64,000 nucleotides of DNA from an uncultured Gammaproteobacteria bacterium (lineage in GTDB: Bacteria; Patescibacteriota; Patescibacteriia; Patescibacteriales; Patescibacteriaceae): NCBI GenBank assembly GCA_964545125.1, contig CAZJEP010000005.1:1447-65446 (forward strand). The letters are read 5' to 3'. A program made the translations under genes and the position numbers. Below are positions 6,205-48,907 of this stretch, piece after piece. The notes beneath the pieces were generated by a model. The model searched no databases. It saw only the letters and a list, made by a program, of their open reading frames with translations, and was not told where the DNA came from. Position 1 is the first letter of the stretch. Each line of letters begins with the position of its first letter.

Positions 6205-6217
6205 ATTTTTATGGGGT

Positions 6218-32000: not shown

Positions 32001-34573
32001 GGCACTTTCAAACTCAAGCCTCCCTGATAAATTTGGTTGCCGGGAGTATTATTGACCAAATCTCCGGAAGCAGACCAACGAGCATCATCAGATGCTTCTA
32101 GTCCCCCATCGGCCAATAAATTAACACCGTTATCATCTTTGACTCTGATAAATTCATGACAACCTTCTTGTTTGTAAGCGCAAGCTCCGGTTTTGCGATT
32201 CAAATAAATATTTTGATTATTGAACCAATTAACCGTGTTGTCGGCCCCATTGTAAGTTCCATTATAAGAATATTCCTTGCAACCAATAGCTGATTGCTGA
32301 CAGCCGTAATCCAAAGTATTGGTTAGATAAGAAACTTTCTGTCCTTTGGGATTTTTGAAAGATTGACAAGTGCTAAACAAAGGATCGCAAGCCTCGTCTT
32401 GCCTGTTTTTATTAAAAATCCAAGAACGTTTTTCCTCGGCGCAATAGCCTCTAAACAAACAAGCGCCGTTGCGACCCTCTTTCAAACAGCCTTGTTCGTC
32501 GGCGCAATAATTATCGTTGCGGTTGACTAAAAGTTTTTGTTCATTGTAAGTGCAAGTAGCCTGGCAAGAAAAATTTCTCAATTCCTTTTCTTTGCCAGGA
32601 ATCATCAATTTGTCTCTGGCCCCCAATTCAGCCTCGGTGCAACAATCATCGTTGGTTTCGCAGGCGTCCAGTTTGCCGTCAACAATCATCCTGGTAGATC
32701 CGTTATCAGCCGAACAATACTTCAAGCCAGTTGTCATCAAGTCGGGATCTTTGACTAATTGCGGACCATAACCTTGGCGCGCGCAATAATATTCCGGCAC
32801 TTTCAAGACCCAGTTGGGATCAACCAAACCGCGACACCAAGGAGCGTCATAACCCCTAAAATTGTCATTAGTATTATAACAAGCCAATAAATCATTAAGA
32901 GTTATTCCCTCCGGCTTATCGGCAAAATCATTGGTTAAATATTTTTTCTGAATGGCTTGAGCGGCCACTTCCCATCCCACCGGTAAAATGCGATATTTTC
33001 TTAAAATAATCAGGGAACGATAAGGATAACCTTGGTTATAAGGAATTTTGTCTTCACCGTTTTTATCAAAACCAAAGGGCCAATTACCAGGCAGTTGGCC
33101 GGATCTGACCGCTTCGGCTACCGTCATTTTGTTTTCAATGGCCGTAGAAAATTCGTTGCCAATAACGCAGTCGGTGGGGCCGGGTCGATCCGGATTGGTA
33201 CAAGCGGTTAATTGTGCCAAGATATCTATTTTGCCACCAGCCGAAAATGTCGGTTCGGTTAATTTGCTGAGTCGGTTTTCAATGGCTTGCCGGCCGACCT
33301 GCTGACCAGTCCAATAACTCAAACTGCCACCTTGACTGCCCAAGTTGCTCATCAAGTTGGTCCAAGAACTGATAGCCCACTGATTTAAGAAAATATTGGC
33401 GGCATCCACCAAAATATCCCCGGTAATTTTGCCCAAATTATCCCACACCGCCTGATCGGCCAATTTCTTTCTCTCCTCGGCGCCATTGGGCGCTCCTTTA
33501 AGCAAACCGGCAAAATTAACATCATCTTTATAGCCATTCTTGGACGGCAAAGAAATTTGGTCGTTAATAACTTGCTTATTGCGATATTCAATTAAATTGC
33601 TGTTCAACAGAAAAGCGGCCCCCAAATCACTGCCGGTCGGATGAAAATTATCCGCCACATTTTCCAAAAAATCTTCACTGGCTAAACTTTTTTGACGCTC
33701 CCATTCGTTAACCCAGTTTTTTTTCATTTGGCTAAAACTACAATGAGTCTGCGAACCGTAATACTGGCTTAGACCCAAACCCAAACTAATCATCAAGGAA
33801 ACATTTAGGCTGGGGTTACAAATATTAAGTCTGGCTAAAGGACTATTAGCACCATTAAACATAGGCGCTCGACGAGCCTGCTCTACCGCGCCACCAGCAT
33901 TTTGCGAACAAGCATTATAAGTGGCCAAACAAGCGTTTAAACAAGCTGTGCTGGGTGGTCCTGATTGACTACAATTACTATCGCACCTTCCTTTGGCATC
34001 ACTACACAAACTCAAACCAGCGCTGACATCACCGCTACTATTCAAACAAACATTATAAGCGTCTTCACAGGCCTTGGTTTGCTCTGGAGTATAGGGGCCA
34101 GTGCCCAGCCGAGCATAACATTCCATTTTTTGCTTATCACAAATAACCTTGCTCTCCTTTTTAATATCTTCGGCAGCGATGTCGGAAATAATCGAATTGG
34201 CAAAACTTTCGATAAAATCACCGGCCGCTTGATCGGCAATATCCTCCCAATGATCTCCCCATTTTTTTTCAATGTATAGTTTTTCTTGTCCTTTGGCGCC
34301 GATGGCCAAATATTTAGCCGCGTCTACGGCCAAATCATTGATATATTTACGCAAAAGGTTTTGAAATAAAATAGTGGCCACCTTATTGCGAACATATTCC
34401 CAGGCAGTCTTAATCCAGTTGGCAGTGGCCGGAATATCCGCTACCACCGTCGTGGTATCCGCCACCCCCAAAATTGCCTCGGCTTGAGGCGCCAACAACA
34501 AATTAGACAATAAAATTAAACTAAAAAAAATTAAAGCAATTTTGAGTTTATGTTGCTTGGTGGTTTTAAACAT
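26036..34573 (-). CDS. giant (2845 aa) secreted cysteine-rich surface protein with three CBM/jelly-roll-like modules
   Basis: Uninterrupted 8.5 kb ORF with a signal peptide ...LLLAPQAEA. It has at least 9 copies of a C-x(4,5)-GC-x-x-aromatic motif, for example CQADEVGCELYTE and CSASEVGCSEYEG. Three modules end FFVDNMKFE, LRLDNIKILE and VYFDDVRLE. Confidence 0.85.
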   Translation of the reverse strand: MFKTTKQHKLKIALIFFSLILLSNLLLAPQAEAILGVADTTTVVADIPATANWIKTAWEYVRNKVATILFQNLLRKYINDLAVDAAKYLAIGAKGQEKLYIEKKWGDHWEDIADQAAGDFIESFANSIISDIAAEDIKKESKVICDKQKMECYARLGTGPYTPEQTKACEDAYNVCLNSSGDVSAGLSLCSDAKGRCDSNCSQSGPPSTACLNACLATYNACSQNAGGAVEQARRAPMFNGANSPLARLNICNPSLNVSLMISLGLGLSQYYGSQTHCSFSQMKKNWVNEWERQKSLASEDFLENVADNFHPTGSDLGAAFLLNSNLIEYRNKQVINDQISLPSKNGYKDDVNFAGLLKGAPNGAEERKKLADQAVWDNLGKITGDILVDAANIFLNQWAISSWTNLMSNLGSQGGSLSYWTGQQVGRQAIENRLSKLTEPTFSAGGKIDILAQLTACTNPDRPGPTDCVIGNEFSTAIENKMTVAEAVRSGQLPGNWPFGFDKNGEDKIPYNQGYPYRSLIILRKYRILPVGWEVAAQAIQKKYLTNDFADKPEGITLNDLLACYNTNDNFRGYDAPWCRGLVDPNWVLKVPEYYCARQGYGPQLVKDPDLMTTGLKYCSADNGSTRMIVDGKLDACETNDDCCTEAELGARDKLMIPGKEKELRNFSCQATCTYNEQKLLVNRNDNYCADEQGCLKEGRNGACLFRGYCAEEKRSWIFNKNRQDEACDPLFSTCQSFKNPKGQKVSYLTNTLDYGCQQSAIGCKEYSYNGTYNGADNTVNWFNNQNIYLNRKTGACAYKQEGCHEFIRVKDDNGVNLLADGGLEASDDARWSASGDLVNNTPGNQIYQGGLSLKVPAGRRGVYYGPDDKSLLPGGFAFDFDRIYTLSAFVYVVSGSVEMTMGNSADPANAQVIYSSATGEWQNMVLTLLNDNAAKMDFWKISGISPDTEFFVDNMKFEMGSGGQYSAYRLDNLLYEKLLPNYLEDACYQDKNKDFNFKVDAPAKCSEFARKCQADEVGCELYTEVNTKDQTAAQVKPKDYCPNECVGYDTFIQKANNFYSARDEYFIPKTAKTCQANAVGCSLFVNLDKVPSGGEENQYFAKFRRCGQPDDVYAEFYTWEGSDESGYQLVVYQLLANPDKTSGISQPATIDDTNTADNNDGDACNETLYSLPYDHPLYNSDCRQFYGRDGNVSYHLMASTITYSKECHPYRLVNNNIDVSITDQATCEAKLGHWDADKLNCIVCLNGGVWMDDHQACVYLADPTKSQTCSASEVGCSEYEGDFGNQIKILFYDTFEGSLSGWGPKPPVEMVSDSLTVGGHSLKPGGSQIERSITSNLKIGKRYVLSFTAKKKSDNVNISRIAIESDSGFNQAFADNIDITADWKNYKFDLTIPGEQDVVSSKIKFTLGGQGADLRLDNIKILEMSDTYYLIRNSWTTPDSCNQDLFGNPAPLYMLGCEQYKDRSDKTHNLKGFDKLCQDSAVGCELMIDTHNSSFYGEERFNNIVVPADNFAYVVYEKTKECRVADKGCSRLGQYDDLAEAYKDVYLLNDPNNYKDTMCSKDQVGCEAWGLEGGGEAYFKDPGLRTCEYRQPSSASEPAWYKIKTSHCVSADKGCPVDAQTGKVCGNGKYCVTIGADQYCASKFSCDNQSDCSVGTKCQLIDNDERCDPLDYDKTIGLGVREAKVQPVGMAVKDATGKTLGNAGLCPDNQNSCTEYIDPESKVNYDLLTGVVSGKVKLKLDTLYVLKNITNEITISCTKAVNLNQPNAPGNQRRVRLHRLGEDNIITATDQVKTVKQSEEFYIDGAFFADNSVLLDNQPADCTITPPAGAQIREALVNYRLKTSLNQDKPNTVNPDKGQVLFNERAFNGGKYSPLVWDVNASGVNRDGSEQAPQNASNDNENNANALLKVDPDRQCSAWLGCKSYTENPAKAGDKICYERGLCDQMNESGECIHFVSKDPATNQTYISGSAALDISNLTGYSKVGYEGNYWNADLYNLATMKQEGDAKVKFDGSFENAWQTDFVDFRTATTRAPIVSDAKVIEKELGFGSYKIIPDGRAVGKTNEFVVKEVTNAGNRQYIVSAYVFLRYGAKVELTVGRNLRQRGYDPDYECPFESINDTTANLCNATDADGASIPAAVLASTSVAGRWVRLTGKFSISNAYQRNLPSGLERDTRITIGIKPTAGLVYFDDVRLEPGLNIKDDGSANKIKQYLHSDCRLYPEGNAMSCDYFDDSGLRKKGWTGYCLEYDPKNSGTCLLWYPIDKVESEEYEEGVALNIPKDLYYCVDAYDGCNSSNKTQPEFQCQTFIKVDKESYWYSRIAQDSVYSIPANLLTNFKDSNNLTPTSSYFYADFGVNAGGKATDLVLNQQAGSGYYGAYSSLKPPLFDRLSAGNIRGKIMPFVPYYGISQAGLDKNVTGSERRAYCPGNLDSQKQEPLPIEVSDCNDCSKTDRDVSRDLGVYDDCFVGLAVIWEDGATCENNKCGTWSAKDRKCSTPRGPGGRDFQGNNKYEYITTTNQNGYRVWATNDLMPPLNAYVCYDPSYPRGNRHNQTKCELSKDNATSKFTGWATDYCLDARVCGDSASVGCLFECFNHTNFYRLASDIRDTSSDKTASKKRAVEAVKRLFTKVDNESPCYKWNGQSYDRNSASGCGIGNGQVDFALKNCDNNTRPEYNGSNNDYCLVSPTVPRVKLNDSLLSGDKYVLNDSGWVVINFASKIDKDQLPLKKYVINWGYQKNNHDVTLVRNVNMFERPDITNSHQVYYFLSYDEIKNGGGNCSHNNCQGLPSEIANNPAIDCCEIIPKIILTDNWGATNTFTPNSNPNAGPENHPFLDHPLVVWKNLQ

Positions 34574-34574
34574 A

Positions 34575-35312
34575 TTATTTATTAATCATAGAATGATACA
34601 TTTCTAATAATTGTTCGTCACTTATTTTACCTAAAGCATCTTTGTCTTCCTGTTTAGTAGCGGCCGAAATTAACTGGGAGCGCAAATATTGGGGATCGGG
34701 ATTGTCGCCAAAAGCCTGTTGTAAAGAACCGGCGCTGGCCGAATCAAGGGGCTGGATGGTAACAGGGGTGGTAACAGCTGAACCGTTAGTAGTGGCGCCA
34801 GAGCTATTAAATAAATCAACCGTCGTAGTAACGCCTGAACTAAGCTGTTCACTGCCGATAATCAAACCATCGGCGCTGCATTGTTTGCCTTCAGGACAAT
34901 TAGGGTTAGTGCTATTTTTAATTTCTTGCTGATCCGAAATACCGTCGCCGTCAGTATCCACCAAAAAAGGCGAAGTAAGATAAACGGTTAATTCTTGAAC
35001 ATCGGTCAAACCATCACCGTCCGTATCTTTGTTGTCGGAAGTAGCTAGTGGCGCTTGGTTGGCATTGTCGGCAGCCACTTTATTTTCAAAACTGGTCTTA
35101 CTCATACCTCCGTAAAAAGGGTAAGTAATATTTTTATTCAGCTCTCTGAACCAAAAAATTATGACAAGCAAGGTAAAACAAGACAAAACAGCCACACCAA
35201 TTTTTTGTTCTTTGGTTAGCCGTAAAGAGTGATTGAGATCCACCTGTTTGGGAGAACCTGCCTGTCCGGCGGGCAGGGATTGTAAATCACCAAAATTTGG
35301 CACTTGCGCCAT
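34575..35312 (-). CDS. membrane-anchored protein with thrombospondin type-3-like Ca-binding repeats
   Basis: One TM helix, then DNKDTDGDGLTDVQE and VDTDGDGISDQQE repeats. Its stop lies 1 nt from the giant gene's ATG. Confidence 0.6.
   Translation of the reverse strand: MAQVPNFGDLQSLPAGQAGSPKQVDLNHSLRLTKEQKIGVAVLSCFTLLVIIFWFRELNKNITYPFYGGMSKTSFENKVAADNANQAPLATSDNKDTDGDGLTDVQELTVYLTSPFLVDTDGDGISDQQEIKNSTNPNCPEGKQCSADGLIIGSEQLSSGVTTTVDLFNSSGATTNGSAVTTPVTIQPLDSASAGSLQQAFGDNPDPQYLRSQLISAATKQEDKDALGKISDEQLLEMYHSMINK
35257..35277. repeat. CCTGCC-N9-GGCAGG hairpin element, in frame in the CDS (encodes LPAGQAG)
   Basis: cctgcctgtccggcgggcagg. Confidence 0.8.
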
Positions 35313-38940: not shown

Positions 38941-39714
38941 TTAAATATCAATTTCCAGCCCGACCGGACAATGATCAGAACCTTTAACTTTGTCTAAGAT
39001 AAAGGCTTTTTTAAGATATTTTTTAAGTTTAGCCGATACTAGAAAATAGTCAATTCTCCAGCCAACATTGTTAGCTCGGGCATTAGCTCGATAGCTCCAC
39101 CAGGAATATTGGACTTTTTTAGGATAAAATTCGCGCCAAGTGTCCACCAAGCCAGAAGCCATAAATTTATCAGCCCAAATCCGCTCCTGATAAGAAAATC
39201 CCGGACTGTTAAGATTGGCTTGTGGCCGAGCCAAATCGATTTCTTGGTGCGCCACATTAAAATCGCCACCGATAATGACCGGCTTAACTTTTTCCAATTT
39301 TTTAATCTGATTCAAAATGGCCGAGTTAAATCTTTCTTTAAAATGCAAGCGCGCCAATTCCGGCTGGGCATTGGGAAAATAAGCGTTGAGCAAAAAAAAT
39401 TTATCCAACTCCAGAATTTGCACTCGTCCTTCGTCATCAAATTCAGCCAGACCTAATCCGCTCTTAACCGACAAAATAGGCAAGCCATTTTTAACCAAAA
39501 GAGCTGTGCCACTATAGCCTTTGCGCTTGGCCGGAAACCAATACTCGTCAAAACCCTGAAAATCAAATTTTGTTTCTTCGCGCTTGGCGTCATCTAATTT
39601 AATTTCTTGCAAACCAAGAATGTCCGGCTTGGCCAAACGAAGCCAATCTTCAAAGCCGTTGCGAACCACCGCTCTAATGCCATTAACATTCCAAGAAATA
39701 AGTCTCAAGTTCAT
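38941..39714 (-). CDS. xth: exodeoxyribonuclease III
   Basis: MNLRLISWNVNGIRA and the C-terminal GSDHCPV. Start trimmed to the ATG at 39714. Confidence 0.9.
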   Translation of the reverse strand: MNLRLISWNVNGIRAVVRNGFEDWLRLAKPDILGLQEIKLDDAKREETKFDFQGFDEYWFPAKRKGYSGTALLVKNGLPILSVKSGLGLAEFDDEGRVQILELDKFFLLNAYFPNAQPELARLHFKERFNSAILNQIKKLEKVKPVIIGGDFNVAHQEIDLARPQANLNSPGFSYQERIWADKFMASGLVDTWREFYPKKVQYSWWSYRANARANNVGWRIDYFLVSAKLKKYLKKAFILDKVKGSDHCPVGLEIDI

Positions 39715-39876
39715 AAAGTTAAAAATCGTGAAGTTAAAAGTTGCCAAGCCGAAAACCCAACAACTTTCAATTTAAAAATATTTCAAGCATCTTAAATTTG
39801 GATTGCCAGATAAATAATGATATACTGTTAGATGAATAATACACAATTATTATACTTTAATTATTACGCTTAAGCA

Positions 39877-40602
39877 ATGAATAATTATAACCAACCGACC
39901 CCTACTCTTAACCCCGCACAAAAGAAAAAAACCTGGATATTGATTGCGGTTATTTTGGGTCTCTTTGTTGTTCTGTCTTTATCTATGACCAAATTTGTCG
40001 GCAACAAAGTTGGTCAATTTTACAATTCGGAACAAGCCCGCACCTCCGCCGAAGCCACCGACAATCTGTATAACTCCGAGAAGCAACTTCGTTATGAGGG
40101 CTTGGATAATGTTTGGAATGTTTTTGGTAGCGCTAAACCAAAAATAACTATTGTCGAATTTGGAGATTTTACTTGTCATTACTGCAAAAACAATTATCCC
40201 GTCATCAGGGCCGTGACTATGCGCCACCAAGATACGGTGCAGTTAATTTTTCGCGATCGCACGCCCGACCAGCGCTCTCTCGGTTTGTCGCTAGTAGCGC
40301 AATGCGCCGGTGAACAAGGAAAATTTTGGGTCATGCACGATAAACTGTATCAAAACCAAAGCGATACTTTGGGCAACGACTTTGCGCAACTGCTGACTTT
40401 AGGGCAAAGCATTAATTTGGACGAAACCACTTTTCGTGATTGTTTAATCAAACAAAAATATTTAAGCAAAATCAAAAAAAACATGCAAAGCAGTTTGGAT
40501 TTGGGCATCAAGGGCACCCCGACTTTTTTCATTAACGGCAAAGAATACGTGGGAGAATTATCCGAAAGTCAACTAGAAGAAATAATTAAAGAATTAGAAT
40601 AA
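39877..40602 (+). CDS. membrane-anchored DsbA-family thiol:disulfide oxidoreductase
   Basis: N-terminal TM helix and a thioredoxin fold with FGDFTCHYCK (CxxC). Confidence 0.75.
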   Translation: MNNYNQPTPTLNPAQKKKTWILIAVILGLFVVLSLSMTKFVGNKVGQFYNSEQARTSAEATDNLYNSEKQLRYEGLDNVWNVFGSAKPKITIVEFGDFTCHYCKNNYPVIRAVTMRHQDTVQLIFRDRTPDQRSLGLSLVAQCAGEQGKFWVMHDKLYQNQSDTLGNDFAQLLTLGQSINLDETTFRDCLIKQKYLSKIKKNMQSSLDLGIKGTPTFFINGKEYVGELSESQLEEIIKELE

Positions 40603-40604
40603 TT

Positions 40605-41144
40605 ATGATTGAGATAAGAATCCATGGTTTAGGTGGACAAGGTGTCGTGACAATGTCAGAAATCTTGGCCTTGGCTTGTTACGAATCCGGCCGAGAAGTC
40701 CAAGTTTTTCCCTGGTTTGGTCCGGAACGCACTGGCGCGCCGGTTACCGGCTTTATTCGCCTAGACGACAAACCAATTCGCCTGCGCTCGCAAATTTACC
40801 AACCGGATATTATTATCGTTACCGATACCAGGCTTTTAAGCAAAATAAAAGTAGCCGAAGGAGCTAAACCAACAACTCGTTTGCTGATAGCCACACCTCA
40901 ATCCTGCTCCGAAACAGTCAAAACCATCAAATTAAAAAACGACCAAATAATTTGTTATAATGTCGAGTCGGTTACTACTGATAAACGTCTGGCCAACAGC
41001 GCTATTTTGGGTTTTGCGGCTAAAACTCTGAATTTAGCCAGTTTGGCTAATTGCCTAAAAGCCGTTAAAATAAAATTAAAATACAAAGACGTCCAAATCA
41101 TAAAGGCCAATCTTGAGGCTGTTACCAAGGGTTATGCCAGTTAA
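40605..41144 (+). CDS. porG: pyruvate/2-oxoacid:ferredoxin oxidoreductase gamma subunit
   Basis: IRIHGLGGQGVVTMSEILA...FPWFGPERTGAPV. Confidence 0.8.
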   Translation: MIEIRIHGLGGQGVVTMSEILALACYESGREVQVFPWFGPERTGAPVTGFIRLDDKPIRLRSQIYQPDIIIVTDTRLLSKIKVAEGAKPTTRLLIATPQSCSETVKTIKLKNDQIICYNVESVTTDKRLANSAILGFAAKTLNLASLANCLKAVKIKLKYKDVQIIKANLEAVTKGYAS

Positions 41145-42300
41145 TAAATACGCTAAACAATTATTAAATACTTCCGAGGCAATCGCTTTGACAATCAGCC
41201 GTATCGGTGTGGGCGTAGTCAGTGCCTATCCAATTACTCCTCAAACCAAAATCGTAGAAGGCTTAGCTAAAGCTCAAAACGCTAGAACCAATAAATATGA
41301 ATTTATCCGCGCGGAAAGCGAGTATGCCGCTGCCTCTATTGCTTTGGGCGCCAGCGCCGGTGGAGCCCGGGCTTATACCGCCACCAGCTCGCAAGGATTA
41401 TTGTTCATGCTCGAGGTACTTTATAACATCGGAGGGCTTGGTTTGCCGGTAGTCATGACATGCGCTAATCGGGCCATCAGCGCTCCTTTAAATATTTGGA
41501 ATGATCACCAAGATGCTTTTGCTATGCGTGATGCCGGTTGGCTGATGTTTTTTGCGGAAAGCGCCGAAGAAGCCAGTGCTCAACACATTTTAGCCTATAA
41601 GTTGGCGGAAAAATTACATTTGCCGGTCGCTGTTAATGTGGATGGTTTTATTTTGACTCATACTAGCGAACCAACTTTTGTTCCGACTCGCGAACAAATT
41701 AAAAAATTTTTGCCGGCCTTCAAACCTCAAACCAACAATGTTTTAGACGTTAAGCATCCGGTTAGTATCGGCCAGTTGGTTCTACCCCAAGATTATCAAG
41801 CCTTCCGCCAAAAATTAAACGAAACGCTGAATAACAGCGCCAAAGTTATCAACCAAGAGCAGGCGCTTTATCAAAAAATGTTCTGCCACCAAGCCAGTCA
41901 TGATTTAAATAACGGCCTTATTGAATATTATGGTCCGAGGTCAGCTAAAATTATTGTGGTGGCCATGGGTTCGGTAGCCGGCACCATCAAAACCGCTCTA
42001 GATGAATACAACCAACGCAAATTAAATCTAAAAAAAGCCGCCCTACTAAGAATAAAAACTTTCCGCCCTTGGCCAACCAAAGCTGTCCAAAAACTAACCC
42101 AGGGAAAAAAAATTATTGTTGTAAACAAAGGCCTAAGTCCTGGTTCTTTGCCTCCCCTATCCCTGGAGGTAGCGGCTAGCGTTTCGGGTAAAATGGACAT
42201 ACTTCATGCGGTGGCTGGTTTAGGAGGAAGAGACATTACAGTTGAGCATATTTTACGTTTAATAAAAAACAAAAATAAACAAAAGTTCTTGTTTGTTTAG
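41134..42300 (+). CDS. porA: pyruvate/2-oxoacid:ferredoxin oxidoreductase alpha subunit
   Basis: GVVSAYPITPQT motif, about 390 aa. Start trimmed to the ATG at 41134, overlapping porG by 11 nt. Confidence 0.8.
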   Translation: MPVNKYAKQLLNTSEAIALTISRIGVGVVSAYPITPQTKIVEGLAKAQNARTNKYEFIRAESEYAAASIALGASAGGARAYTATSSQGLLFMLEVLYNIGGLGLPVVMTCANRAISAPLNIWNDHQDAFAMRDAGWLMFFAESAEEASAQHILAYKLAEKLHLPVAVNVDGFILTHTSEPTFVPTREQIKKFLPAFKPQTNNVLDVKHPVSIGQLVLPQDYQAFRQKLNETLNNSAKVINQEQALYQKMFCHQASHDLNNGLIEYYGPRSAKIIVVAMGSVAGTIKTALDEYNQRKLNLKKAALLRIKTFRPWPTKAVQKLTQGKKIIVVNKGLSPGSLPPLSLEVAASVSGKMDILHAVAGLGGRDITVEHILRLIKNKNKQKFLFV

Positions 42301-42428
42301 TAATTTAAAAGACAAAAATCAAAGGGCAAAATTATGAAGTCCCGATATTCATCGAAACAATAATTGATTAATTTTAATTTTTGAATTGTAATTTTTCATT
42401 TTGATATTTACATTTTGATTTTACTATT

Positions 42429-43262
42429 ATGTCTAAAATCTTCCTAATTCCCACCGGCATTTTTCTATCGTCTTTGGTCGTGTTTAATGTCGCTCAAGCT
42501 GCCAATGACCTTTATTTCACCCCGCAGATTTCCATTCCGGGTAGCGACTTCCAATCGCAACAACAAATTTTGATAAAAAACGACACCAGTTTAATTTGCG
42601 ACTATATTATTGCTGTTTACAAATACGCCATTGCTATCGTGGGCGTCTTGGCAGTGGTCTCAATAGCTATCGGTGGAACGATCTGGATTCTGTCGTCCGG
42701 TAGCAGCAGTATGGTCGGCACCGCCAAAGACTGGATTTTCTCCGGACTCATCGGTTTAATTTTGGCTTTAGGTTCTTTTATGTTGTTGGCTACCATTAAC
42801 AAAGATCTGGTTACCTGCCAAATCTCAAGCGTTCAAGACATAGCCAAAATCAACCAAACCCCTCAACCAACAACCACTGGAAACAACCCTAACAACACCC
42901 CCAACAACAACAATCCCATTAAAGACACTAGCAAAGATTTTGCTAAATACTTTGGCTGTTGCACCTTGTCAAGCGGTTCTTCGCAAACGCTTACCGAAAA
43001 AACGTGTACCGAAAATGGCGGAAGTTGGCAAGCTGATAGTTTCGTTGAAAATAACAAGTGCGTCAAAGGAGCAAATTGTTGCGTGGGAGACGACATGAAT
43101 CATTGGTCTCTTTTCGGCAAGCCGACTTTTAATATTATGATACCCACCAACGCCACCAGCGACAAAGACTGCAAACAACCAGCCAGTTTTTCAGCAAAAA
43201 TTAATTACTGGGACTTGGTAAAAAGTCCTTGCTCGTCCATTGTCGCTAGCGTAACCCCCTAA
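42429..43262 (+). CDS. VirB2-like pilin hairpin with a Cys-rich C-terminal extension
   Basis: Signal peptide, then YKYAIAIVGVLAVVSIAIGGTIWILSSGSSSMVGTAKDWIFSGLIGLILALGSFMLLATIN (two TM helices). An N/P/T-rich linker and a domain of about 110 aa with 9 Cys follow. Confidence 0.55.
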   Translation: MSKIFLIPTGIFLSSLVVFNVAQAANDLYFTPQISIPGSDFQSQQQILIKNDTSLICDYIIAVYKYAIAIVGVLAVVSIAIGGTIWILSSGSSSMVGTAKDWIFSGLIGLILALGSFMLLATINKDLVTCQISSVQDIAKINQTPQPTTTGNNPNNTPNNNNPIKDTSKDFAKYFGCCTLSSGSSQTLTEKTCTENGGSWQADSFVENNKCVKGANCCVGDDMNHWSLFGKPTFNIMIPTNATSDKDCKQPASFSAKINYWDLVKSPCSSIVASVTP

Positions 43263-43284
43263 CCTTAAAAACTGTTATTGACCC

Positions 43285-44028
43285 ATGCTGACAAAAATAA
43301 AAAAAATATTATACAAAAAAGTTAAGCCCGTTGTCGGTTACTCGATTTTGGGAGTTATGTTATTTTTAACCGCTTTGCTTGGTTATGATGCCTACAATTC
43401 CGACTTGCTTTTTTTTAATCCCAACCCCGTCACCGAACCAACGGTTTATCCTCTAAGTCCCAAAGAATATAAACAGGCCTTGCTGGAACAAAAACCGATT
43501 GAAACCTTAAGCATGGGAACGCATAACGGCAAACCTAATTTCAAAGACAACATCAAAAAATACGACGGTCTTTTTAAAGAGGCGGCCAAAAAATACAAAG
43601 TTGATTGCACCTTAATAAAAGCTACTATGTTGGCTGAATCACGAGGTAACGCCAAAATCAGAAGCGGAGTCGGCGCGGTTGGCTTAATGCAATTAATGCC
43701 GGCCACGGCGCGCGCTATGGGCTATGGTGGCAATCTTACCGATCCGCGCGTCAACATCATGGCCGGAACCAAATATATGGCGCACTTAAAAGAACGCGGT
43801 TGTCACGAAAAACCGGCCAACGAAGTTTGCGACGTTAAAAAAGACGTTAAATATCGTCTAGCCGCCTATAACGGTGGGCCAAAATGCAATCAACCGGGCA
43901 ACGGCAAGTGTTCCCGACAAACCGCCTGGGAGTGTATTTATTACGATGCCTACGGCCAAACCAGACACTATGTCAATAGAGTTAAGGCTAATTACGAAGA
44001 ACTAAAAAATAAGGGTTGGGGATGCTGA
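43285..44028 (+). CDS. lytic transglycosylase (SLT domain, VirB1-like)
   Basis: LIKATMLAESRGNAKIRSGVGAVGLMQLMPATARAMGY, with an N-terminal TM anchor. Confidence 0.8.
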   Translation: MLTKIKKILYKKVKPVVGYSILGVMLFLTALLGYDAYNSDLLFFNPNPVTEPTVYPLSPKEYKQALLEQKPIETLSMGTHNGKPNFKDNIKKYDGLFKEAAKKYKVDCTLIKATMLAESRGNAKIRSGVGAVGLMQLMPATARAMGYGGNLTDPRVNIMAGTKYMAHLKERGCHEKPANEVCDVKKDVKYRLAAYNGGPKCNQPGNGKCSRQTAWECIYYDAYGQTRHYVNRVKANYEELKNKGWGC

Positions 44029-44138
44029 AAAAGTTCTAAATTTTAAGTTTAAAATTTCAAGTGAAACAACTTTACCCAAAAAACTTAAAACTTAAGCCTT
44101 GAAACTTGAAACTTAAGACACACCTTATCCATAACTAA

Positions 44139-44747
44139 ATGAAAAAAATATTGCTGGCTATCTTAATAATTTCCGTGGCTATTTTGTTGCTTTTCTGGCC
44201 TCTCTCTGGTTGGCAAGGGCCTAAAATAAAATTATTTGCGAAATTATTAACCAAATCCATTGAAAACGTGCGTGAAGATTATGCCAAAAAATCTTGCACC
44301 GAATTTAACAAACAAGAATTGAAACAAGGATATTTTGATGCTCTTGTTACCGGCTATTGCAAACCCAGTCCGGAAAATTTCACCAATCGCGCCGATTTTC
44401 TGTGCGCCGTCGGACTTAATTGTTCCTGCCCCAACGGACGAGATGAAACGGCCGGCTGCGCCCTAGAAGGATCCTTGACTTGGTCTCCCTGTAAAGAATT
44501 TGATAATAAAACTATTCCCTATTGCCATCAGACGGCCACTGGCGCCGAGCCAAAACCTGGCGATGTGGCCGCGGACTGGAATTGTTTTGCTAAAAATTCT
44601 ACCATTAACATTAATAATCAAAATTACCATGTAACCGACAAGGGTTCAGCTATTACCGGGAGGCGCGCCGATATTTGGTTTGCTAATTGTCAAGACGCCT
44701 TTAAAGTAATGGGGATATATAAGGTGGCTATACCAAATAAATTTTAA
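44139..44747 (+). CDS. 3D-domain (MltA/RlpA-like double-psi beta-barrel) cell-wall protein
   Basis: VTGYC...TATGAEPKPGDVAADWN...YHVTDKGSAITGRRADIWF. Confidence 0.6.
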   Translation: MKKILLAILIISVAILLLFWPLSGWQGPKIKLFAKLLTKSIENVREDYAKKSCTEFNKQELKQGYFDALVTGYCKPSPENFTNRADFLCAVGLNCSCPNGRDETAGCALEGSLTWSPCKEFDNKTIPYCHQTATGAEPKPGDVAADWNCFAKNSTININNQNYHVTDKGSAITGRRADIWFANCQDAFKVMGIYKVAIPNKF

Positions 44748-44758
44748 ATTAAAATACC

Positions 44759-46414
44759 ATGTTACTAAATAACATTAAAAAAATATATTTACCGACCTTA
44801 ATCTTTTTACTCTTGACCCCTAGCTTAGTTTTGGCAGCCGACAACGATATTATCTGCCCCGAAGCTCAGGCCACAGAGGTTCTGGTTTATTTTCATGGCC
44901 TCACCCACAACGACCACTCCATTTATGTCAACAGCTTAAACACCTTTAAGTCAGAATTAGCAAAAATAAAAAATCAACGACCAGGCGTGGCCGGCATCCA
45001 TGTCAACAACGAAGCCAACGGAGGCAACTGGAAAGGGGTCAAGGTTAACGTCAGCGCTCTGGTTGACCAAGTCAAGAATAAATGTGGCGTTCAGGCTGGC
45101 GCTAATTTTTACACCACTATCGCCGGCCATAGCGCCGGTGGCTATGCCGTTATTAACAACGCCAATTCAGCCAGCAAAATTATTATTTTAGACGGTATGT
45201 ATTGGCCGGCCGATCCCCTGTTTGACAAGTGTTCCAAGATTAGCGTCATCGGAGGATCCGTGGCCGGTAATGGCGGGACCAAAGACCAAACAACTAGATT
45301 AATAAATAAATGCTATGGAACCAGTGGCTTTAATTCCATAGCCAACAGCGACGGTAAAATCAGCCATGACGGCACTCGCGCCTATTTATCCTCTTTCTAC
45401 CTAAATTCTTCCGGAGTTGTCAGTGTGTCCTCGCCTAATACTAGTCAAAATCAAAATAAAACAAATTCAACATTTAATGTTTCTTTGCCGATGATTAAAA
45501 ACCCCTTCGACAGTTTGCAGGTAATGATTCCGGGCATGCCCAGATTTTCGGACGCTGTTATTAGCGGTTCTGGCAACAATATGAAAATTACCATCAACTG
45601 GATAGGCGAATACATCATGGGAATTTATAATTACGCTATCGGCGTTATCGGTATTTTTTCGGTGGTGGCCATTGCCATTGGCGGCACCATGTGGATTTTG
45701 TCTTTTGGCAATCCGGGTCAAATCATTATCGCCAAGGAATGGATTCTTGGCGCCATTTTGGGCTTGGTATTGGCCCTGGGGTCATATATCCTGCTCAACA
45801 CTATCAATGACGATCTAATTCAAATGAAACCAATAGAATTGGCTTATATTCAAAGAATTGAAGATCCGGGCGATAATGGTTCTGGCGGCGATTACTACCA
45901 TGTCGGTCCTAACCAGGTCGGTCAACCTTACAGCGGTCAAGATCCGAATAATCCTTGTCCGGCCAGCACTCTCCCTGATTTAACGCAATATTATGCTTAC
46001 AAAGCTAACCCTCCTCTTATTTATAGTCAGGATCCTAATAAACGAAGACAGGCGGGATATTGTGATTGCTCCTCGTTCTCTCAACACCTGGCTATTTGTT
46101 CCAGAGCCAATGCTATTGCCGGCGAAGGTCGCACCATAAATTTATTTAAAGATGTCAGTAACAATCGCGAAGAAATCATGGACTGCGACAATCCTCCTAA
46201 AATGTCTCCAGGAGACATTTTTGGCTACTACAGCGATAGCAAAGAAAGAGGCCACGTCTTAACTTACATTGGCAATGGCCAATACATCGAATGTGGCGGT
46301 GAATTCAAAGGCAACACACAAACCCGGGGAGCTATTAAAATTGGCCCCTTTAGAGAAAGATGTTTATCATACAAAAAAAACAATAACATTAAACTCTTCT
46401 TTATTAGTCGATAA
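44759..46414 (+). CDS. tri-partite protein: alpha/beta-hydrolase-like domain, pilin-type two-TM hairpin, and NlpC/P60-like cysteine peptidase
   Basis: N-terminal part has VLVYFHGL and TIAGHSAGGYA (GxSxG). The middle has YNYAIGVIGIFSVVAIAIGGTMWILSFGNPGQIIIAKEWILGAILGLVLALGSYILLNTIN. The C-terminal part has GYCDCSSFSQHL and GHVLTYIGNGQYIECGG. Confidence 0.6.
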   Translation: MLLNNIKKIYLPTLIFLLLTPSLVLAADNDIICPEAQATEVLVYFHGLTHNDHSIYVNSLNTFKSELAKIKNQRPGVAGIHVNNEANGGNWKGVKVNVSALVDQVKNKCGVQAGANFYTTIAGHSAGGYAVINNANSASKIIILDGMYWPADPLFDKCSKISVIGGSVAGNGGTKDQTTRLINKCYGTSGFNSIANSDGKISHDGTRAYLSSFYLNSSGVVSVSSPNTSQNQNKTNSTFNVSLPMIKNPFDSLQVMIPGMPRFSDAVISGSGNNMKITINWIGEYIMGIYNYAIGVIGIFSVVAIAIGGTMWILSFGNPGQIIIAKEWILGAILGLVLALGSYILLNTINDDLIQMKPIELAYIQRIEDPGDNGSGGDYYHVGPNQVGQPYSGQDPNNPCPASTLPDLTQYYAYKANPPLIYSQDPNKRRQAGYCDCSSFSQHLAICSRANAIAGEGRTINLFKDVSNNREEIMDCDNPPKMSPGDIFGYYSDSKERGHVLTYIGNGQYIECGGEFKGNTQTRGAIKIGPFRERCLSYKKNNNIKLFFISR

Positions 46415-46424
46415 AAAGCTAGAT

Positions 46425-47294
46425 ATGACAAAAAATCTTAATTTATTAAGCAATGAACATAGCGCTTGCGCGGGTTGCGGGCAAATTATCGCCTCGCGCG
46501 TGGTGGTTAATACTTTAGGACCAAACACCGTGGTTATTAATGCGACGGGCTGTCTGGAAGTTACCACCTCGCAATATCCTAGTTCGGCCTGGAAACTTCC
46601 CTGGATTCATTCTTTGTTTGCCAATCCAGCTCCTTTGGCCTCCGGGGTTTTGGCGGCTTTGCGACAGCAAAAAAAATCAGCCAAAATCTTAGTTCAGGCC
46701 GGCGATGGCTCCACTTTTGATATCGGCTTTGGCGCGGTTAGCGGCATGTGGGATCGAGGCGATGATATTATTTATGTTTGTTATGACAATGAGATTTACG
46801 CCAACACCGGCATGCAGGCTTCGGCCGCCACACCCTATGGCAGTCGCACTTCCACTACTCCTTATGGCAAACTCTTAGACGGACACAAAAAAAATATGGT
46901 AGAAATCGCCTTATCACACGGTTTGAAATATGTGGCGCAAACTACCGCTGGTTTTATTGACGACTTGAAAGATAAGGTCATTAAAGCCAGCCTTACCAAA
47001 GGTCCGAGTTATATTCAAATCCTCTCCCCTTGTATCCCTGGCTGGTCGGTGGCCATCGCCGAATCGATTAAAGTGGCCCAATTAGCCGCGTTGACCGGTC
47101 TTTACCCTGGTTTGGAATACGTCAACGGCGAATTAACCAAAGTTATTAAGGTCACCAAACCACAAATTAAAGTTTGGGAATACTTGCAATATCAATCACG
47201 CTTTCGCCATTTAGCTAAAACCAAAGAAGGACAAGCTATTTTAGCAGAACTACAAGCCCTGGCTGATAGTAATATCAAAAAATATGGATTATAG
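46425..47294 (+). CDS. porB: pyruvate/2-oxoacid:ferredoxin oxidoreductase beta (TPP-binding) subunit
   Basis: CAGCGQIIASR, TGCLEV and GDGSTFDIGFGAVSG. Start trimmed to the ATG at 46425, 10 nt after the preceding stop. Confidence 0.8.
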   Translation: MTKNLNLLSNEHSACAGCGQIIASRVVVNTLGPNTVVINATGCLEVTTSQYPSSAWKLPWIHSLFANPAPLASGVLAALRQQKKSAKILVQAGDGSTFDIGFGAVSGMWDRGDDIIYVCYDNEIYANTGMQASAATPYGSRTSTTPYGKLLDGHKKNMVEIALSHGLKYVAQTTAGFIDDLKDKVIKASLTKGPSYIQILSPCIPGWSVAIAESIKVAQLAALTGLYPGLEYVNGELTKVIKVTKPQIKVWEYLQYQSRFRHLAKTKEGQAILAELQALADSNIKKYGL

Positions 47295-47347
47295 GTAATA
47301 GGTAGTAAGTTTTTGGTTATAGAAATTAAAAATTACGTCTTAAAAAT

Positions 47348-47378
47348 AAAAAACTTTGGAACATTATCCAAAGTTTTT
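47348..47378. terminator. bidirectional terminator between convergent genes
   Basis: aaaaactttgga-acatta-tccaaagttttt. Confidence 0.7.
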
Positions 47379-47404
47379 TAACGATCTATTACCTAATACC
47401 TCGC

Positions 47405-48907
47405 TTATAATTTGATACACTTATTGGCCACACAATCTGGTTGGTTAGAATCAAGGCAATCTCCGCACAACAGGGTTCCGCCACAACCGTCAGCCAAGCG
47501 CCCACATTCAGCTTGACTAGACTGACAATCGGCTGGATTGCAAACCTTGATCGTACCCTTGGTTGAACCGACATTGCCATAAATATCACTAACAGTAATT
47601 TCTAAATCAAAAAATTCGTAGGCTCTACCCGGAGACAAATCAATGCTCTTGGCCACCAAAGCTTTTTGATTGTCAAAATTTTTAATATCTTCCAATTTTA
47701 AACCAGGTTTACTGTTGTCAGACCAGCGCCAGCCACGCCTATACCAATCGTTCCAATCAGCGGTAATTCTTAGGCTACTCCAATCAATCGGGTAGTCGCT
47801 ATTAACCGCCAAATAATCCCTAAACGAACCTTCCCTGGCGTTAAGCGTCCCTAAAATAATATTAATCGTACTAGGATTAGGTAGTTTAATAGGATTGCCC
47901 AAACAATTAAGATCTTCGGGTATACCGGCATATTTGGTTTCAAAATTGGCGCAAAACAAATAAACATTTGTTTTGGGGTCCCAAGAATAAGCAAAAGCCA
48001 AAGAACCTTCAGGGAAATAATCCGGGTAAATAAAACTGGAAGCATATTTTTTATCGACTTCGTTCCAGCAAGTAACGCTGTCAAAGCTGGCTGGACAGTT
48101 TTGCAACCTATTGACCGGATCCTGAGGCAGCTTATAACCTAAAGTCTTACCCAGGGTTTCATTCCAGCTCGGCCAAACGGAAATGGATTTATTGGGCAAA
48201 TAAGAACCGGAAGGCAATCCAGGATACTTTTTGTTTTTTCCATTATAAACTTCAAAAGCTATTTTAGCTTCTCTCATATCAGCCATTCTCTTAACATCAC
48301 GCACCAACTTAGCCTTGACACTATCGCAGTATTGACCATAAGAACATTCGTCCGACAAAAGACATTTCTTAACACAAAAAAAGTTACCACTACCGTCGTC
48401 TTCGCAAGAATTGTCTATAAACTTTCCAGTACAACCCTTGGCCATGTCACAAGATTCGGTGCTTTTTGGCTGGCAAATTCCCGGACCGGTTTTATCCACC
48501 AAATCGGCGTTAAACTTCCAATACTGCAATAATTGTCCAAAAATGTCCCTGGTTTCGTCAGTGGCTTGTTGATTAAAGGAAATAATATAAATATTGGTAT
48601 ACAGCATATCAGGCGACCAGTTGGGAGTTTGAGCTGGCACCACATTAGCGGCATTAACATATACCGTGCGACCGTCGCGCACCGCTTCATAGCCGTTGAC
48701 AATCAACGACTGAGGGGCGCCCTTAATATCCACATTGTCGTAATACCAGGCCAAAGGAGATTCGTGATCAGGATTGGGCATCACCCGGACGGCAATCGCG
48801 TCAGGCGAAGAATCCGTCGCCGCATTAATCGACCAAAACGATAAAAATAAACCTAAACAAAAAAATAGGGTTAATAAATTTAATTTGTTGCTAATACTAG
48901 AAAGCAT
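47405..48907 (-). CDS. secreted hypothetical protein with Cys-rich central and C-terminal segments
   Basis: Signal peptide, and a C-terminal CNPADCQSSQAECGRLADGCGGTLLCGDCLDSNQPDCVANKC. Confidence 0.5.
   Translation of the reverse strand: MLSSISNKLNLLTLFFCLGLFLSFWSINAATDSSPDAIAVRVMPNPDHESPLAWYYDNVDIKGAPQSLIVNGYEAVRDGRTVYVNAANVVPAQTPNWSPDMLYTNIYIISFNQQATDETRDIFGQLLQYWKFNADLVDKTGPGICQPKSTESCDMAKGCTGKFIDNSCEDDGSGNFFCVKKCLLSDECSYGQYCDSVKAKLVRDVKRMADMREAKIAFEVYNGKNKKYPGLPSGSYLPNKSISVWPSWNETLGKTLGYKLPQDPVNRLQNCPASFDSVTCWNEVDKKYASSFIYPDYFPEGSLAFAYSWDPKTNVYLFCANFETKYAGIPEDLNCLGNPIKLPNPSTINIILGTLNAREGSFRDYLAVNSDYPIDWSSLRITADWNDWYRRGWRWSDNSKPGLKLEDIKNFDNQKALVAKSIDLSPGRAYEFFDLEITVSDIYGNVGSTKGTIKVCNPADCQSSQAECGRLADGCGGTLLCGDCLDSNQPDCVANKCIKL

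What the first reader, a model, noticed from the sequence alone, without database searches (positions are those of the whole stretch)
39877..47294. 2-oxoacid:ferredoxin oxidoreductase operon split by the pilin/hydrolase cassette and headed by a DsbA-like gene
The gene order on one strand is dsbA-like (stop at 40602), porG (start at 40605), porA (overlapping porG by 11 nt), a 128-nt gap, four cassette genes, and porB starting 10 nt after the last cassette stop. The gamma, alpha and beta subunits of one enzyme are normally contiguous, so 4.1 kb of surface-protein genes between alpha and beta is unusual. I see no terminator hairpin between porA and the cassette or before porB, so all nine genes may be co-transcribed. 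No delta (ferredoxin-like) subunit gene is visible. The DsbA-like oxidoreductase at the head fits the window's very Cys-rich secretome (5269-6204, 26036-34573, 42429-43262, 44139-44747, 47405-48907).
Basis: partly seen in the sequence, partly recalled or inferred. Interest (0 to 1): 0.6.

Follow-up and report, generated by a model that had tools for sequence, protein, structure and literature searches.

The report
Pilin genes embedded in POR operon
In this tiny-genome (Patescibacteria) bacterium the genes for a pyruvate-oxidising enzyme are interrupted by surface pilin and cell-wall-hydrolase genes, but the interruption is an old layout shared by the whole related lineage, not a recent insertion.

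Summary
Nine same-strand genes run dsbA-like, porG, porA, pil1, SLT, 3D, pil2, porB. No terminator lies inside, and a strong hairpin follows porB. No porD or ferredoxin motif occurs in the 64 kb.

The "insertion" reading does not hold. There are no target-site duplications, mobility genes or GC anomaly. In 20 Patescibacteria loci that carry porA and porB on one contig, one or two VirB2-like pilin genes (Pfam PF18895) always lie between them. About 11 contig-truncated loci agree. All 111 non-Patescibacteria loci in the PorA tree have porA and porB contiguous. A dsbA-like gene precedes porG only in the Patescibacteria clade.

The inferred ancestral order is dsbA-porG-porD-porA-pil1-porB-pil2. 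The window's lineage lost porD, gained SLT and 3D, and now has pil2 upstream of porB. A metagenome relative with 86% PorB identity shares this derived layout.

PorB is intact, with its four Cys ligands and TPP motif (2e-78 to PDB 9bt4_C).

Best reading: one mixed operon encoding a delta-less gamma-alpha-beta POR together with a DsbA and Cys-rich pilin/peptidoglycan-hydrolase envelope module, linked by history and co-transcription. A biochemical link is not shown. No RNA data exist. Interest is modest.

The parts
39877..40602 (+). DsbA/BdbD-like membrane-anchored thiol-disulfide oxidoreductase. It has an N-terminal TM helix after a KKK stretch, and the active site is CHYC.
   Evidence: Thioredoxin_4 4.3e-23 and DSBA 2.2e-13. 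Orthologues precede porG in every Patescibacteria locus where the upstream region is visible, and in no non-Patescibacteria locus. The CxxC motif is kept in 20 of 23 relatives.
40605..41144 (+). porG, the gamma subunit of a 2-oxoacid:ferredoxin oxidoreductase
   Evidence: PF01558 1.6e-31; TIGR02175 145.6 bits against a cut-off of 81.1
41134..42300 (+). porA, the alpha subunit. It overlaps porG by 11 nt, which leaves no room for porD.
   Evidence: POR_N 8.7e-64, PFOR_II 3.5e-21, PorA_Arch 3e-106. The start matches the L159 orthologue. Relatives have an 87-88 aa porD between porG and porA.
42301..42428 (.). AT-rich gap of 128 nt between porA and pil1. It has no terminator and no significant fold. 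An internal promoter cannot be excluded.
   Evidence: z -1.09. The gap is similar in size in L159 (143 nt), but only the last ~10 nt before the ATG are conserved.
42429..43262 (+). pil1: signal peptide, VirB2-like T4SS_pilin two-helix domain, and a Cys-rich C-terminal domain. It is the orthologue of the gene that sits between porA and porB throughout the clade.
   Evidence: PF18895 alone scores 18.6 bits, below the 26.6 cut-off. The profile of 18 family members matches a bona fide PF18895 domain at 97.6% probability, E 2.9e-12. All 18 members hit PF18895. Synteny is shown.
43285..44028 (+). Membrane-anchored SLT-family lytic transglycosylase (VirB1-like)
   Evidence: PF01464 2.7e-21. It is 74% identical in L159 and absent from the more distant relatives.
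44029..44138 (.). AT-rich gap of 110 nt between the SLT and 3D genes, with short AT-rich inverted repeats and no significant fold
   Evidence: repeats I2 and I4; z -0.97
44139..44747 (+). Membrane-anchored, Cys-rich (5% Cys) 3D-domain protein, similar to YuiC/MltA-type lytic transglycosylases
   Evidence: PF06725 1.1e-4, just below the cut-off. YuiC structures score E 0.04. It is 80% identical in L159.
44759..46414 (+). pil2: signal peptide, an unassigned N-terminal domain with a GHSAGG serine-hydrolase-like motif, a T4SS_pilin domain, and a weak NlpC/P60-like C-terminal domain
   Evidence: PF18895 6e-4. NlpC/P60 scores E 0.01 in Pfam and 0.55 against PDB 6biq. The orthologue in L083 lies after porB and aligns to residues 20-440 (E 5e-50). 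The L159 and L083 versions end in Peptidase_C39_2 instead.
46425..47294 (+). porB, the beta subunit (TPP and proximal [4Fe-4S]). It is intact and starts 10 nt after the pil2 stop.
   Evidence: NF008819 2.3e-86. 2e-78 to PDB 9bt4_C, with CxxC, C, C and the GDG...N motif aligned.
47347..47380 (.). Bidirectional intrinsic-terminator hairpin between the convergent porB and the Cys-rich 500-aa gene. It is nested in a longer inverted repeat (47292-47396).
   Evidence: -33.3 kcal/mol; z -6.33; 0 of 200 shuffles fold as well

Best explanation
The region is one nine-gene, same-strand unit of a Patescibacteria genome. The nearest named relatives are Candidatus Falkowbacteria. The unit interleaves two unrelated modules.

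Module 1 is a cytoplasmic pyruvate/2-oxoacid:ferredoxin oxidoreductase built from gamma, alpha and beta subunits only. The delta subunit with its two [4Fe-4S] clusters has been lost. Electrons would therefore pass from the single cluster of PorB straight to a free ferredoxin, as in naturally delta-less enzymes of this superfamily.

Module 2 is an envelope set. It comprises a membrane-anchored DsbA/BdbD-like disulfide oxidoreductase, two VirB2-like pilin-domain proteins with Cys-rich or peptidoglycan-hydrolase ectodomains, an SLT lytic transglycosylase and a 3D-domain lytic transglycosylase. The DsbA-like enzyme most likely forms the disulfides of these exported Cys-rich proteins.

The interleaving is ancestral to the whole Patescibacteria POR clade. 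The inferred ancestral order is dsbA-porG-porD-porA-pil1-porB-pil2. The window's lineage lost porD, added the SLT and 3D genes, and now has pil2 upstream of porB. porB is expressed by read-through, probably with translational coupling, from the pilin genes.

The linkage is best explained by historical contingency together with shared transcription in a small genome that has few promoters. A biochemical link between POR and the pilins is not needed to explain it.

Shown: gene identities, gene order, conservation of the order, loss of porD, intact PorB, and the placement of terminators.
Inferred: co-transcription, DsbA acting on the pilins, direct reduction of ferredoxin, and the absence of functional coupling.
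For: Gene identities.

Synteny:
- 18 genome loci plus 2 metagenome loci with porA and porB on one contig all carry 1-2 PF18895 genes between them. Pilin-to-porB gaps are at most about 55 nt.
- About 11 contig-truncated loci show porA-pilin or pilin-porB.
- In the PorA NJ tree the 32 Patescibacteria sequences form one clade. All 111 others are contiguous and lack dsbA.
- Five loci have the segment xth-dsbA-porG-porD inverted. The three whose contigs extend downstream (L081, L089 with porB; L077 ends early) keep porA-pilin-porB where visible (L081, L089); the other contigs end at porA.
- porD is present in most relatives. It is absent in one subclade containing the window, L076, L159, L099, L104, L106, L111 and L139.
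- The pil2 orthologue lies after porB in L083.
- L159 (PorB 86%) has the window's exact nine-gene order.

Transcription and assembly: no internal terminator and a strong one after porB. No TSDs. No GC anomaly. The assembly is confirmed by independent contigs.

DsbA: CxxC is conserved in 20 of 23 relatives.
Against: - No transcript data exist for this organism, so co-transcription is inferred only.
- The 128-nt and 110-nt AT-rich gaps are conserved in size in L159 and could hold internal promoters.
- Three relatives have CPxS instead of CxxC in the DsbA-like protein.
- porB stands alone, without a pilin directly upstream, in some Patescibacteria contigs (L003, L006, L008, L009). The linkage is therefore not obligatory.
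- Only 64 kb of the genome is visible, so a porD or a second por locus elsewhere cannot be excluded.
- Persistence of porA-pilin-porB through other rearrangements could also reflect selection for co-expression.
Confidence: 0.7

Rival explanations
1. Recent insertion. The 4.1-kb pilin/hydrolase cassette is a mobile or horizontally acquired island that landed between porA and porB in this genome.
For: The four genes are unrelated to POR, and porA and porB are contiguous in all 111 non-Patescibacteria loci. SLT and 3D homologues are missing from the more distant relatives.
Against: - No direct repeats flank the cassette.
- There is no integrase or transposase.
- GC is 0.39-0.45, the same as the flanks.
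- pil1 orthologues occupy the same site across the whole clade.
- The full four-gene set is already present in L159, where housekeeping genes are only 68-86% identical.
Confidence: 0.03
2. Selected functional coupling. DsbA, POR and the pilin/hydrolase proteins are kept in one operon because they must be co-expressed. One possibility is that host-contact and cell-wall-breaching proteins are switched on together with catabolism of host-derived pyruvate. Another is a redox link between the extracytoplasmic disulfide system and ferredoxin metabolism in organisms that lack quinones.
For: dsbA and a pilin gene were both added to por genes only in this clade. They persist through about 50% protein divergence. 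In the inverted loci whose downstream region is visible (L081, L089), porA-pilin-porB stays intact. The operon is tightly packed.
Against: - The functionally unrelated neighbours leuS and xth are conserved next to the block about as well, so synteny alone is weak evidence.
- porB is detached in several lineages.
- In L090 and L097 other small genes occupy the porA-porB site.
- POR is cytoplasmic, while the pilins and DsbA are extracytoplasmic, and no electron path between them is visible.
- No literature support was found.
Confidence: 0.15
3. Several transcription units. Internal promoters in the 128-nt and 110-nt AT-rich gaps, or in the 3' end of pil2, drive pil1-SLT, 3D-pil2 and porB separately, so the split has no consequence for expression.
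For: Both larger gaps are conserved in size in L159. A promoter-like TTGATA-18-TATTAT lies at 42401-42430. An AT-rich TTTATTA...TAA stretch just upstream of the porB ATG is shared by the close relatives. porB has its own upstream region in L008.
Against: - Promoter-like hits are at shuffle frequency (24 found, 21.8 expected).
- The best one overlaps the pil1 start codon.
- No terminator separates the genes.
- The 10-nt, 11-nt and 22-nt gaps leave no room for promoters outside coding sequence.
Confidence: 0.25
4. porB here is a decaying remnant or a paralogue, and the functional enzyme is encoded elsewhere.
For: Only 64 kb of the genome can be inspected, and porD is missing.
Against: - The ORF is full length.
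- All four Cys ligands and the TPP GDG...N motif align to PDB 9bt4_C (E 2e-78).
- PorB is the best-conserved gene of the block against L159 (86%).
- porG, porA and porB are all intact, and PorA groups with the other Patescibacteria sequences.
Confidence: 0.02

Closest known systems
Four-subunit (gamma-delta-alpha-beta, PorCDAB/PorGDAB) pyruvate:ferredoxin oxidoreductases of archaea and anaerobic bacteria; the nearest solved structure is PDB 9bt4
   Same: The gamma, alpha and beta subunits have the same domains, Cys ligands and TPP motif. The gene order is gamma then alpha then beta. PorB scores 2e-78 to 9bt4_C.
   Different: The delta subunit is absent. The alpha and beta genes are separated by 4.1 kb of envelope genes. 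A dsbA-like gene sits at the head. Scores fall below the NCBIfam equivalog cut-offs (PorA 356 against 550; PorB 290 against 405), so substrate specificity is not assigned.
Naturally delta-less, single-cluster 2-oxoacid:ferredoxin oxidoreductases (Sulfurisphaera tokodaii OFOR, PDB 5b46; Magnetococcus OGOR, PDB 6n2n)
   Same: Only the PorB-type proximal [4Fe-4S] cluster is encoded, which implies direct electron transfer to ferredoxin. That these enzymes work this way is taken from my own knowledge.
   Different: They belong to a different subfamily (5b46_B at 2e-14 and 6n2n_B at 5e-10). In those enzymes gamma is fused to alpha. Here gamma is a separate gene, and the loss of delta is recent within a delta-containing clade.
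VirB2-like (PF18895/PF04956) pilin genes and arrays of Patescibacteria (Microb Genom 2025, PMC12102498)
   Same: The Pfam domain is the same. There are tandem, rapidly diverging paralogues. A VirB4-like ATPase and another PF18895 gene lie in the same window.
   Different: These copies are embedded in a metabolic operon about 24 kb from virB4. They carry large Cys-rich, M15/VanY, C39-like or NlpC/P60-like ectodomains. The paper does not mention any por linkage.
BdbD/DsbA-type thiol-disulfide oxidoreductases of monoderm bacteria, which stabilise exported pilin-like proteins (for example ComGC in Bacillus subtilis; from my own knowledge)
   Same: A membrane-anchored Thioredoxin_4/DSBA fold with a CxxC motif, encoded next to Cys-rich pilin-like substrates.
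   Different: No BdbC, DsbB or VKOR partner is seen in the window. The gene is co-operonic with a cytoplasmic oxidoreductase. Some orthologues have CPxS.

Membership tests
2-oxoacid:ferredoxin oxidoreductase, POR/VOR four-subunit type | Gamma subunit (PF01558 / TIGR02175) | tested here: met
   145.6 bits against a cut-off of 81.1; PF01558 1.6e-31
2-oxoacid:ferredoxin oxidoreductase, POR/VOR four-subunit type | Alpha subunit with POR_N and PFOR_II domains | tested here: met
   8.7e-64 and 3.5e-21
2-oxoacid:ferredoxin oxidoreductase, POR/VOR four-subunit type | Beta subunit with the TPP-binding GDG...N motif and four Cys ligands for the proximal [4Fe-4S] cluster | tested here: met
   The alignment to PDB 9bt4_C (E 2e-78) keeps CxxC, C, C and GDG...YDNE.Y.NTG
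2-oxoacid:ferredoxin oxidoreductase, POR/VOR four-subunit type | Delta subunit with two [4Fe-4S] motifs, encoded between gamma and alpha | tested here: not met
   porG and porA overlap by 11 nt. tblastn with the PorD of relatives and a motif scan of all six frames find nothing in 64 kb. The rest of the genome was not visible.
2-oxoacid:ferredoxin oxidoreductase, POR/VOR four-subunit type | Pyruvate as substrate (equivalog-level assignment) | tested here: inconclusive
   The best models are PorA_Arch and PorB, but both fall below the equivalog cut-offs (356 against 550; 290 against 405). Enzymology is needed.
VirB2-like T4SS pilin (Pfam PF18895) | Match to the family profile over the two-helix domain | tested here: met
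   pil1 and pil2 alone are sub-threshold (18.6 and 20.2 bits against 26.6). All 18 family members hit PF18895, best 3.5e-10. The family profile matches a bona fide domain (window 5269-6225) at 97.6% probability, E 2.9e-12.
VirB2-like T4SS pilin (Pfam PF18895) | Genomic association with a T4SS (VirB4 and others), and assembly into a pilus | tested here: inconclusive
   A VirB4-like ATPase lies at 16230-18161, about 24 kb away and not adjacent. Pilus formation cannot be tested here.
DsbA/BdbD thiol-disulfide oxidoreductase | Thioredoxin fold with a CxxC motif, exported or membrane-anchored | tested here: met
   Thioredoxin_4 82.7 bits against 23.2; a CHYC motif; an N-terminal TM helix after a KKK stretch. 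Whether it acts as an oxidase or a reductase was not tested.
Mobile element / genomic island insertion | Target-site duplication or terminal repeats at the borders | tested here: not met
   No repeat pairs 42301-42428 with 46415-46424
Mobile element / genomic island insertion | Mobility genes, a compositional anomaly, or presence/absence polymorphism among relatives | tested here: not met
   No integrase or transposase. GC equals the flanks. The site is occupied in every relative with both borders visible.

The most novel reading that the evidence does not exclude
The dsbA-por-pilin operon is a selected co-expression unit specific to this Patescibacteria clade. It would tie oxidation of host-derived pyruvate by a streamlined, delta-less POR to the deployment of disulfide-stabilised VirB2-like surface proteins and peptidoglycan hydrolases used at the host contact site. 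The pilin gene would then be kept between porA and porB because the stoichiometry or timing of the two modules matters.
Probability: 0.12. Interest if true: 0.6.

Novelty: new variant of a known kind. Interest (0 to 1): 0.35.

Why it matters
Both gene families are well known. Three points appear to be unreported in the searchable literature.

- Clade-wide embedding: a whole Patescibacteria clade carries a VirB2-like pilin gene inside its por gene cluster, headed by a DsbA-like gene.
- Delta loss: one subclade has shed the delta subunit. This gives a natural three-gene POR with a single iron-sulfur cluster.
- Module swapping: the pilin genes at this site exchange ectodomains (Cys-rich, M15/VanY, C39-like, NlpC/P60-like).

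The layout offers a simple genomic marker for this lineage. It warns annotation pipelines that a "missing porB" or "incomplete POR" call in such genomes may only reflect the split. It also gives a tractable pair of proteins, the DsbA-like enzyme and a Cys-rich pilin ectodomain, for studying oxidative protein folding in organisms without quinones.

The finding does not open a long-standing question, and the linkage may have no functional meaning.

Tried and rejected
- Target-site duplications and terminal repeats: only AT-rich chance matches were found.
- Rfam scan of 39600-47500 at E up to 1: no match.
- Folding of the two larger gaps: no better than shuffles.
- RNA-seq: only two DNA metagenome runs hold the sequence, and no RNA run was found. 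Co-transcription could therefore not be tested.
- Metagenome scan with pil2: no relative found. The second scan, with PorB, gave L156-L159.
- Single-sequence AlphaFold model of pil2: mean pLDDT 44. It was not used for a fold search.
- PDB sequence searches for pil2 and the 3D protein: only weak hits (NlpC/P60 at E 0.55; YuiC at E 0.04).
- N-terminal domain of pil2 and of its L083 orthologue: no Pfam assignment. The alpha/beta-hydrolase idea rests only on the GHSAGG motif.
- Promoter scan: hits are at shuffle frequency, and the best one overlaps the pil1 ATG.
- Literature searches (PF18895; Patescibacteria with POR and pilin; Patescibacteria with DsbA; CPR with porA and porB): nothing on this arrangement.
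- Pseudogene or paralogue hypothesis for porB: rejected.

Full report
**1. Observation**

- dsbA-like 39877-40602: Thioredoxin_4 4e-23, DSBA 2e-13.
- porG 40605-41144: TIGR02175 145.6 bits against a cut-off of 81.1.
- porA, ATG at 41134 to 42300: POR_N 9e-64 and PFOR_II 4e-21, with an 11-nt overlap with porG.
- A 128-nt AT-rich gap.
- pil1 42429-43262, SLT 43285-44028 (PF01464 3e-21), 3D-domain gene 44139-44747, pil2 44759-46414.
- porB, ATG at 46425 to 47294: PorB NF008819 2e-86, starting 10 nt after the pil2 stop.

The + strand terminator-like hits are all intragenic and at background frequency. The two larger gaps do not fold better than shuffles. The region after porB does, with z -6.3, and it contains a perfect bidirectional hairpin at 47347-47380.

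No porD homologue and no ferredoxin-type Cys motif exists in any frame of the 64-kb window.

Independent Logan contigs from two metagenome runs cross both the porA/pil1 and the pil2/porB junctions at 100% identity. The order is therefore not an assembly artefact.

**2. What the organism is**

The nearest PorB and PorA sequences come from Patescibacteria MAGs. Where these are named, they are Candidatus Falkowbacteria. The window also carries a VirB4-like ATPase (16230-18161) and a strong PF18895 pilin (5269-6225), both typical of this group (PMC12102498).

**3. Comparative evidence**

PorB-centred and PorA-centred locus searches in one-genome-per-species contigs returned L001-L155. These were mapped with the window's proteins plus PorD and pilin queries.

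In the PorA neighbour-joining tree, 32 Patescibacteria sequences form one clade. The results within and outside that clade are as follows.

- Eighteen genome loci with porA and porB on one contig have one or two ORFs of 199-825 aa tightly packed between them.
- Eighteen sequences (16 of these intervening ORFs plus the window's pil1 and pil2) were scanned, and all 18 hit Pfam T4SS_pilin.
- The family profile matches a bona fide PF18895 domain at 97.6% probability, E 2.9e-12.
- Two further metagenome loci, L159 and L229, show the same arrangement.
- About eleven contig-truncated loci show porA-pilin or pilin-porB.
- All 111 sequences outside the clade (Omnitrophota, Planctomycetes-labelled, Nitrospirota, Deltaproteobacteria, archaea) have porA and porB 20-250 nt apart and no dsbA.

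The common Patescibacteria block is leuS(-) xth(-) | dsbA porG porD porA pilin porB pilin. It is often followed by rnhA(-) and recJ(-).

Five loci carry a clean inversion of the segment xth-dsbA-porG-porD. In the two whose contigs reach porB (L081, L089) the porA-pilin-porB order is kept.

There are exceptions.

- In L090 and L097 another small gene occupies the porA-porB site.
- In L091 porA is followed by folD.
- In L003, L006, L008 and L009 porB stands alone.

**4. History of the window's version**

porD is an 87-88 aa protein with two CxxCxxCxxxCP motifs. It lies between porG and porA in most relatives. It is missing in one subclade that contains the window, L076, L159, L099, L104, L106, L111 and L139. 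In those of these loci that were inspected (L076, L099, L159), porG and porA overlap. This points to a single loss.

The gene after porA in relatives is most similar to pil1. The gene after porB is most similar to pil2. In L083 that post-porB gene aligns to pil2 residues 20-440 (E 5e-50). It shares the N-terminal GHSAGG domain and ends in a C39-like peptidase.

SLT and 3D homologues are absent from all distant loci. They are present, at 74% and 80% identity, in L159, which has the window's exact nine-gene order with PorB at 86%.

The window's lineage therefore shows three changes relative to the inferred ancestor:

- porD was lost.
- The SLT and 3D genes were added.
- pil2 now lies upstream of porB.

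Against L159, the pilin proteins are the fastest-evolving genes of the block. They reach 58-61% identity over the pilin domain only, and their ectodomains cannot be aligned. PorB is the slowest.

At this site the pilin domain is fused to several kinds of ectodomain: Cys-rich, M15/VanY, Peptidase_C39_2 or NlpC/P60-like.

**5. Not a mobile insertion**

- No direct repeats flank the cassette.
- No mobility genes are present.
- GC matches the flanks.
- No empty site exists among the relatives.

**6. Integrity of POR**

PorB aligns end to end with the beta subunit of the solved four-subunit PFOR (PDB 9bt4_C, E 2e-78). The CxxC, C and C ligands and the GDG...YDNE.Y.NTG TPP motif are all in place.

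With delta missing, only one [4Fe-4S] cluster is encoded. Delta-less single-cluster relatives of this superfamily exist: 5b46 and 6n2n appear as more distant hits, and their chemistry is taken from my own knowledge. A gamma-alpha-beta enzyme that reduces ferredoxin directly is therefore plausible, but it is untested.

**7. Mechanism proposed**

The unit is probably transcribed from the xth/dsbA divergent region through to the hairpin after porB. porB would be translated by coupling to the preceding pilin gene.

The DsbA-like protein has an N-terminal membrane anchor and a CHYC motif. CxxC is kept in 20 of 23 relatives. It most likely oxidises the Cys-rich ectodomains of pil1 (3.6% Cys), the 3D protein (5%), SLT and pil2.

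The SLT, 3D and NlpC/P60-like domains indicate peptidoglycan remodelling. The target could be the cell's own wall, for pilus passage, or a host's wall.

No biochemical link between POR and this envelope set is visible. The neighbours leuS and xth are about as well conserved, and porB is detached in some lineages. Both points argue that the linkage reflects history and shared transcription, not functional coupling. I put selected coupling at about 0.12-0.15.

**8. Limits**

- No RNA data exist.
- Internal promoters in the 128-nt and 110-nt gaps cannot be excluded. Those gaps are conserved in size in L159.
- Only 64 kb of the genome is visible.
- The pil2 N-terminal domain is unassigned. The AlphaFold single-sequence model is unusable, with mean pLDDT 44.
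- The tree is a simple NJ tree of PorA, not a species tree.

**9. Verdict**

The interpretation as an unusual insertion is replaced by a clade-wide, ancient mixed operon with lineage-specific elaboration and loss of delta. No report of this arrangement was found.

It is a new variant of known kinds. It is of moderate interest to Patescibacteria and POR specialists and of low general surprise.

Noticed in passing
L103:9410-11440 (also L112, L113, L123, L134): In several Omnitrophota and Planctomycetes-labelled MAGs, PorB is a 676-aa ORF carrying an intein of about 360 aa. The intein starts with CLS, ends with VVHN followed by T, and has a homing-endonuclease-like middle. It is inserted exactly in the TPP-binding motif NEAYMN|TG.
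   Followed up: partly
L002:7889-9438: Two tandem pilin genes between porA and porB share a nearly identical N-terminal stretch of about 150 aa (signal peptide plus pilin domain). Their Cys-rich C-terminal domains are unrelated. This suggests recent duplication with ectodomain replacement, or gene conversion of the 5' halves.
   Followed up: no
window 16230-18161 (-) and 5269-6225 (-): A VirB4-like ATPase (TraG P-loop 4e-27, AAA_10) and a further Cys-rich protein with a strong C-terminal PF18895 pilin domain (1.4e-11). The window therefore also holds core T4SS genes about 24 kb from the por block.
   Followed up: partly
window 26036-34573 (-): A giant 2845-aa ORF whose only Pfam hit is a CBM_4_9 carbohydrate-binding domain (5e-12). 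The neighbouring 245-aa ORF (34575-35312) has a bacterial TSP3 repeat. Both are probably surface proteins.
   Followed up: no
window 47292-47396: Nested inverted repeats lie between the convergent porB and the Cys-rich 500-aa gene. An outer GGTAATAGGTAG/CTATTACC stem encloses two hairpins (-33.3 kcal/mol, z -6.3). This is more elaborate than a simple terminator.
   Followed up: partly
L002, L076, L087 (dsbA-like genes): Three orthologues of the DsbA-like protein have CPFS or CPYS in place of CxxC, so they are single-cysteine variants. The others have CPYC, CSHC, CPFC and similar motifs.
   Followed up: partly
L002:9386-9936; L006:9656-9901; L009:936-1208; L097:11292-11681; L007:1923-2300: Small toxin-antitoxin-like or four-helix-bundle ORFs repeatedly sit immediately upstream of porB in different Patescibacteria. 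The site before porB appears to be a hot spot for small insertions.
   Followed up: no
window 44043-44116; L076:5860-6050; L159:8180-8310: The AT-rich gaps inside the operon contain short tandem or inverted GAAACTT / GAAATT / GAAGTTT-type repeats in the window and in relatives. These could be regulator sites or simply low-complexity sequence.
   Followed up: no
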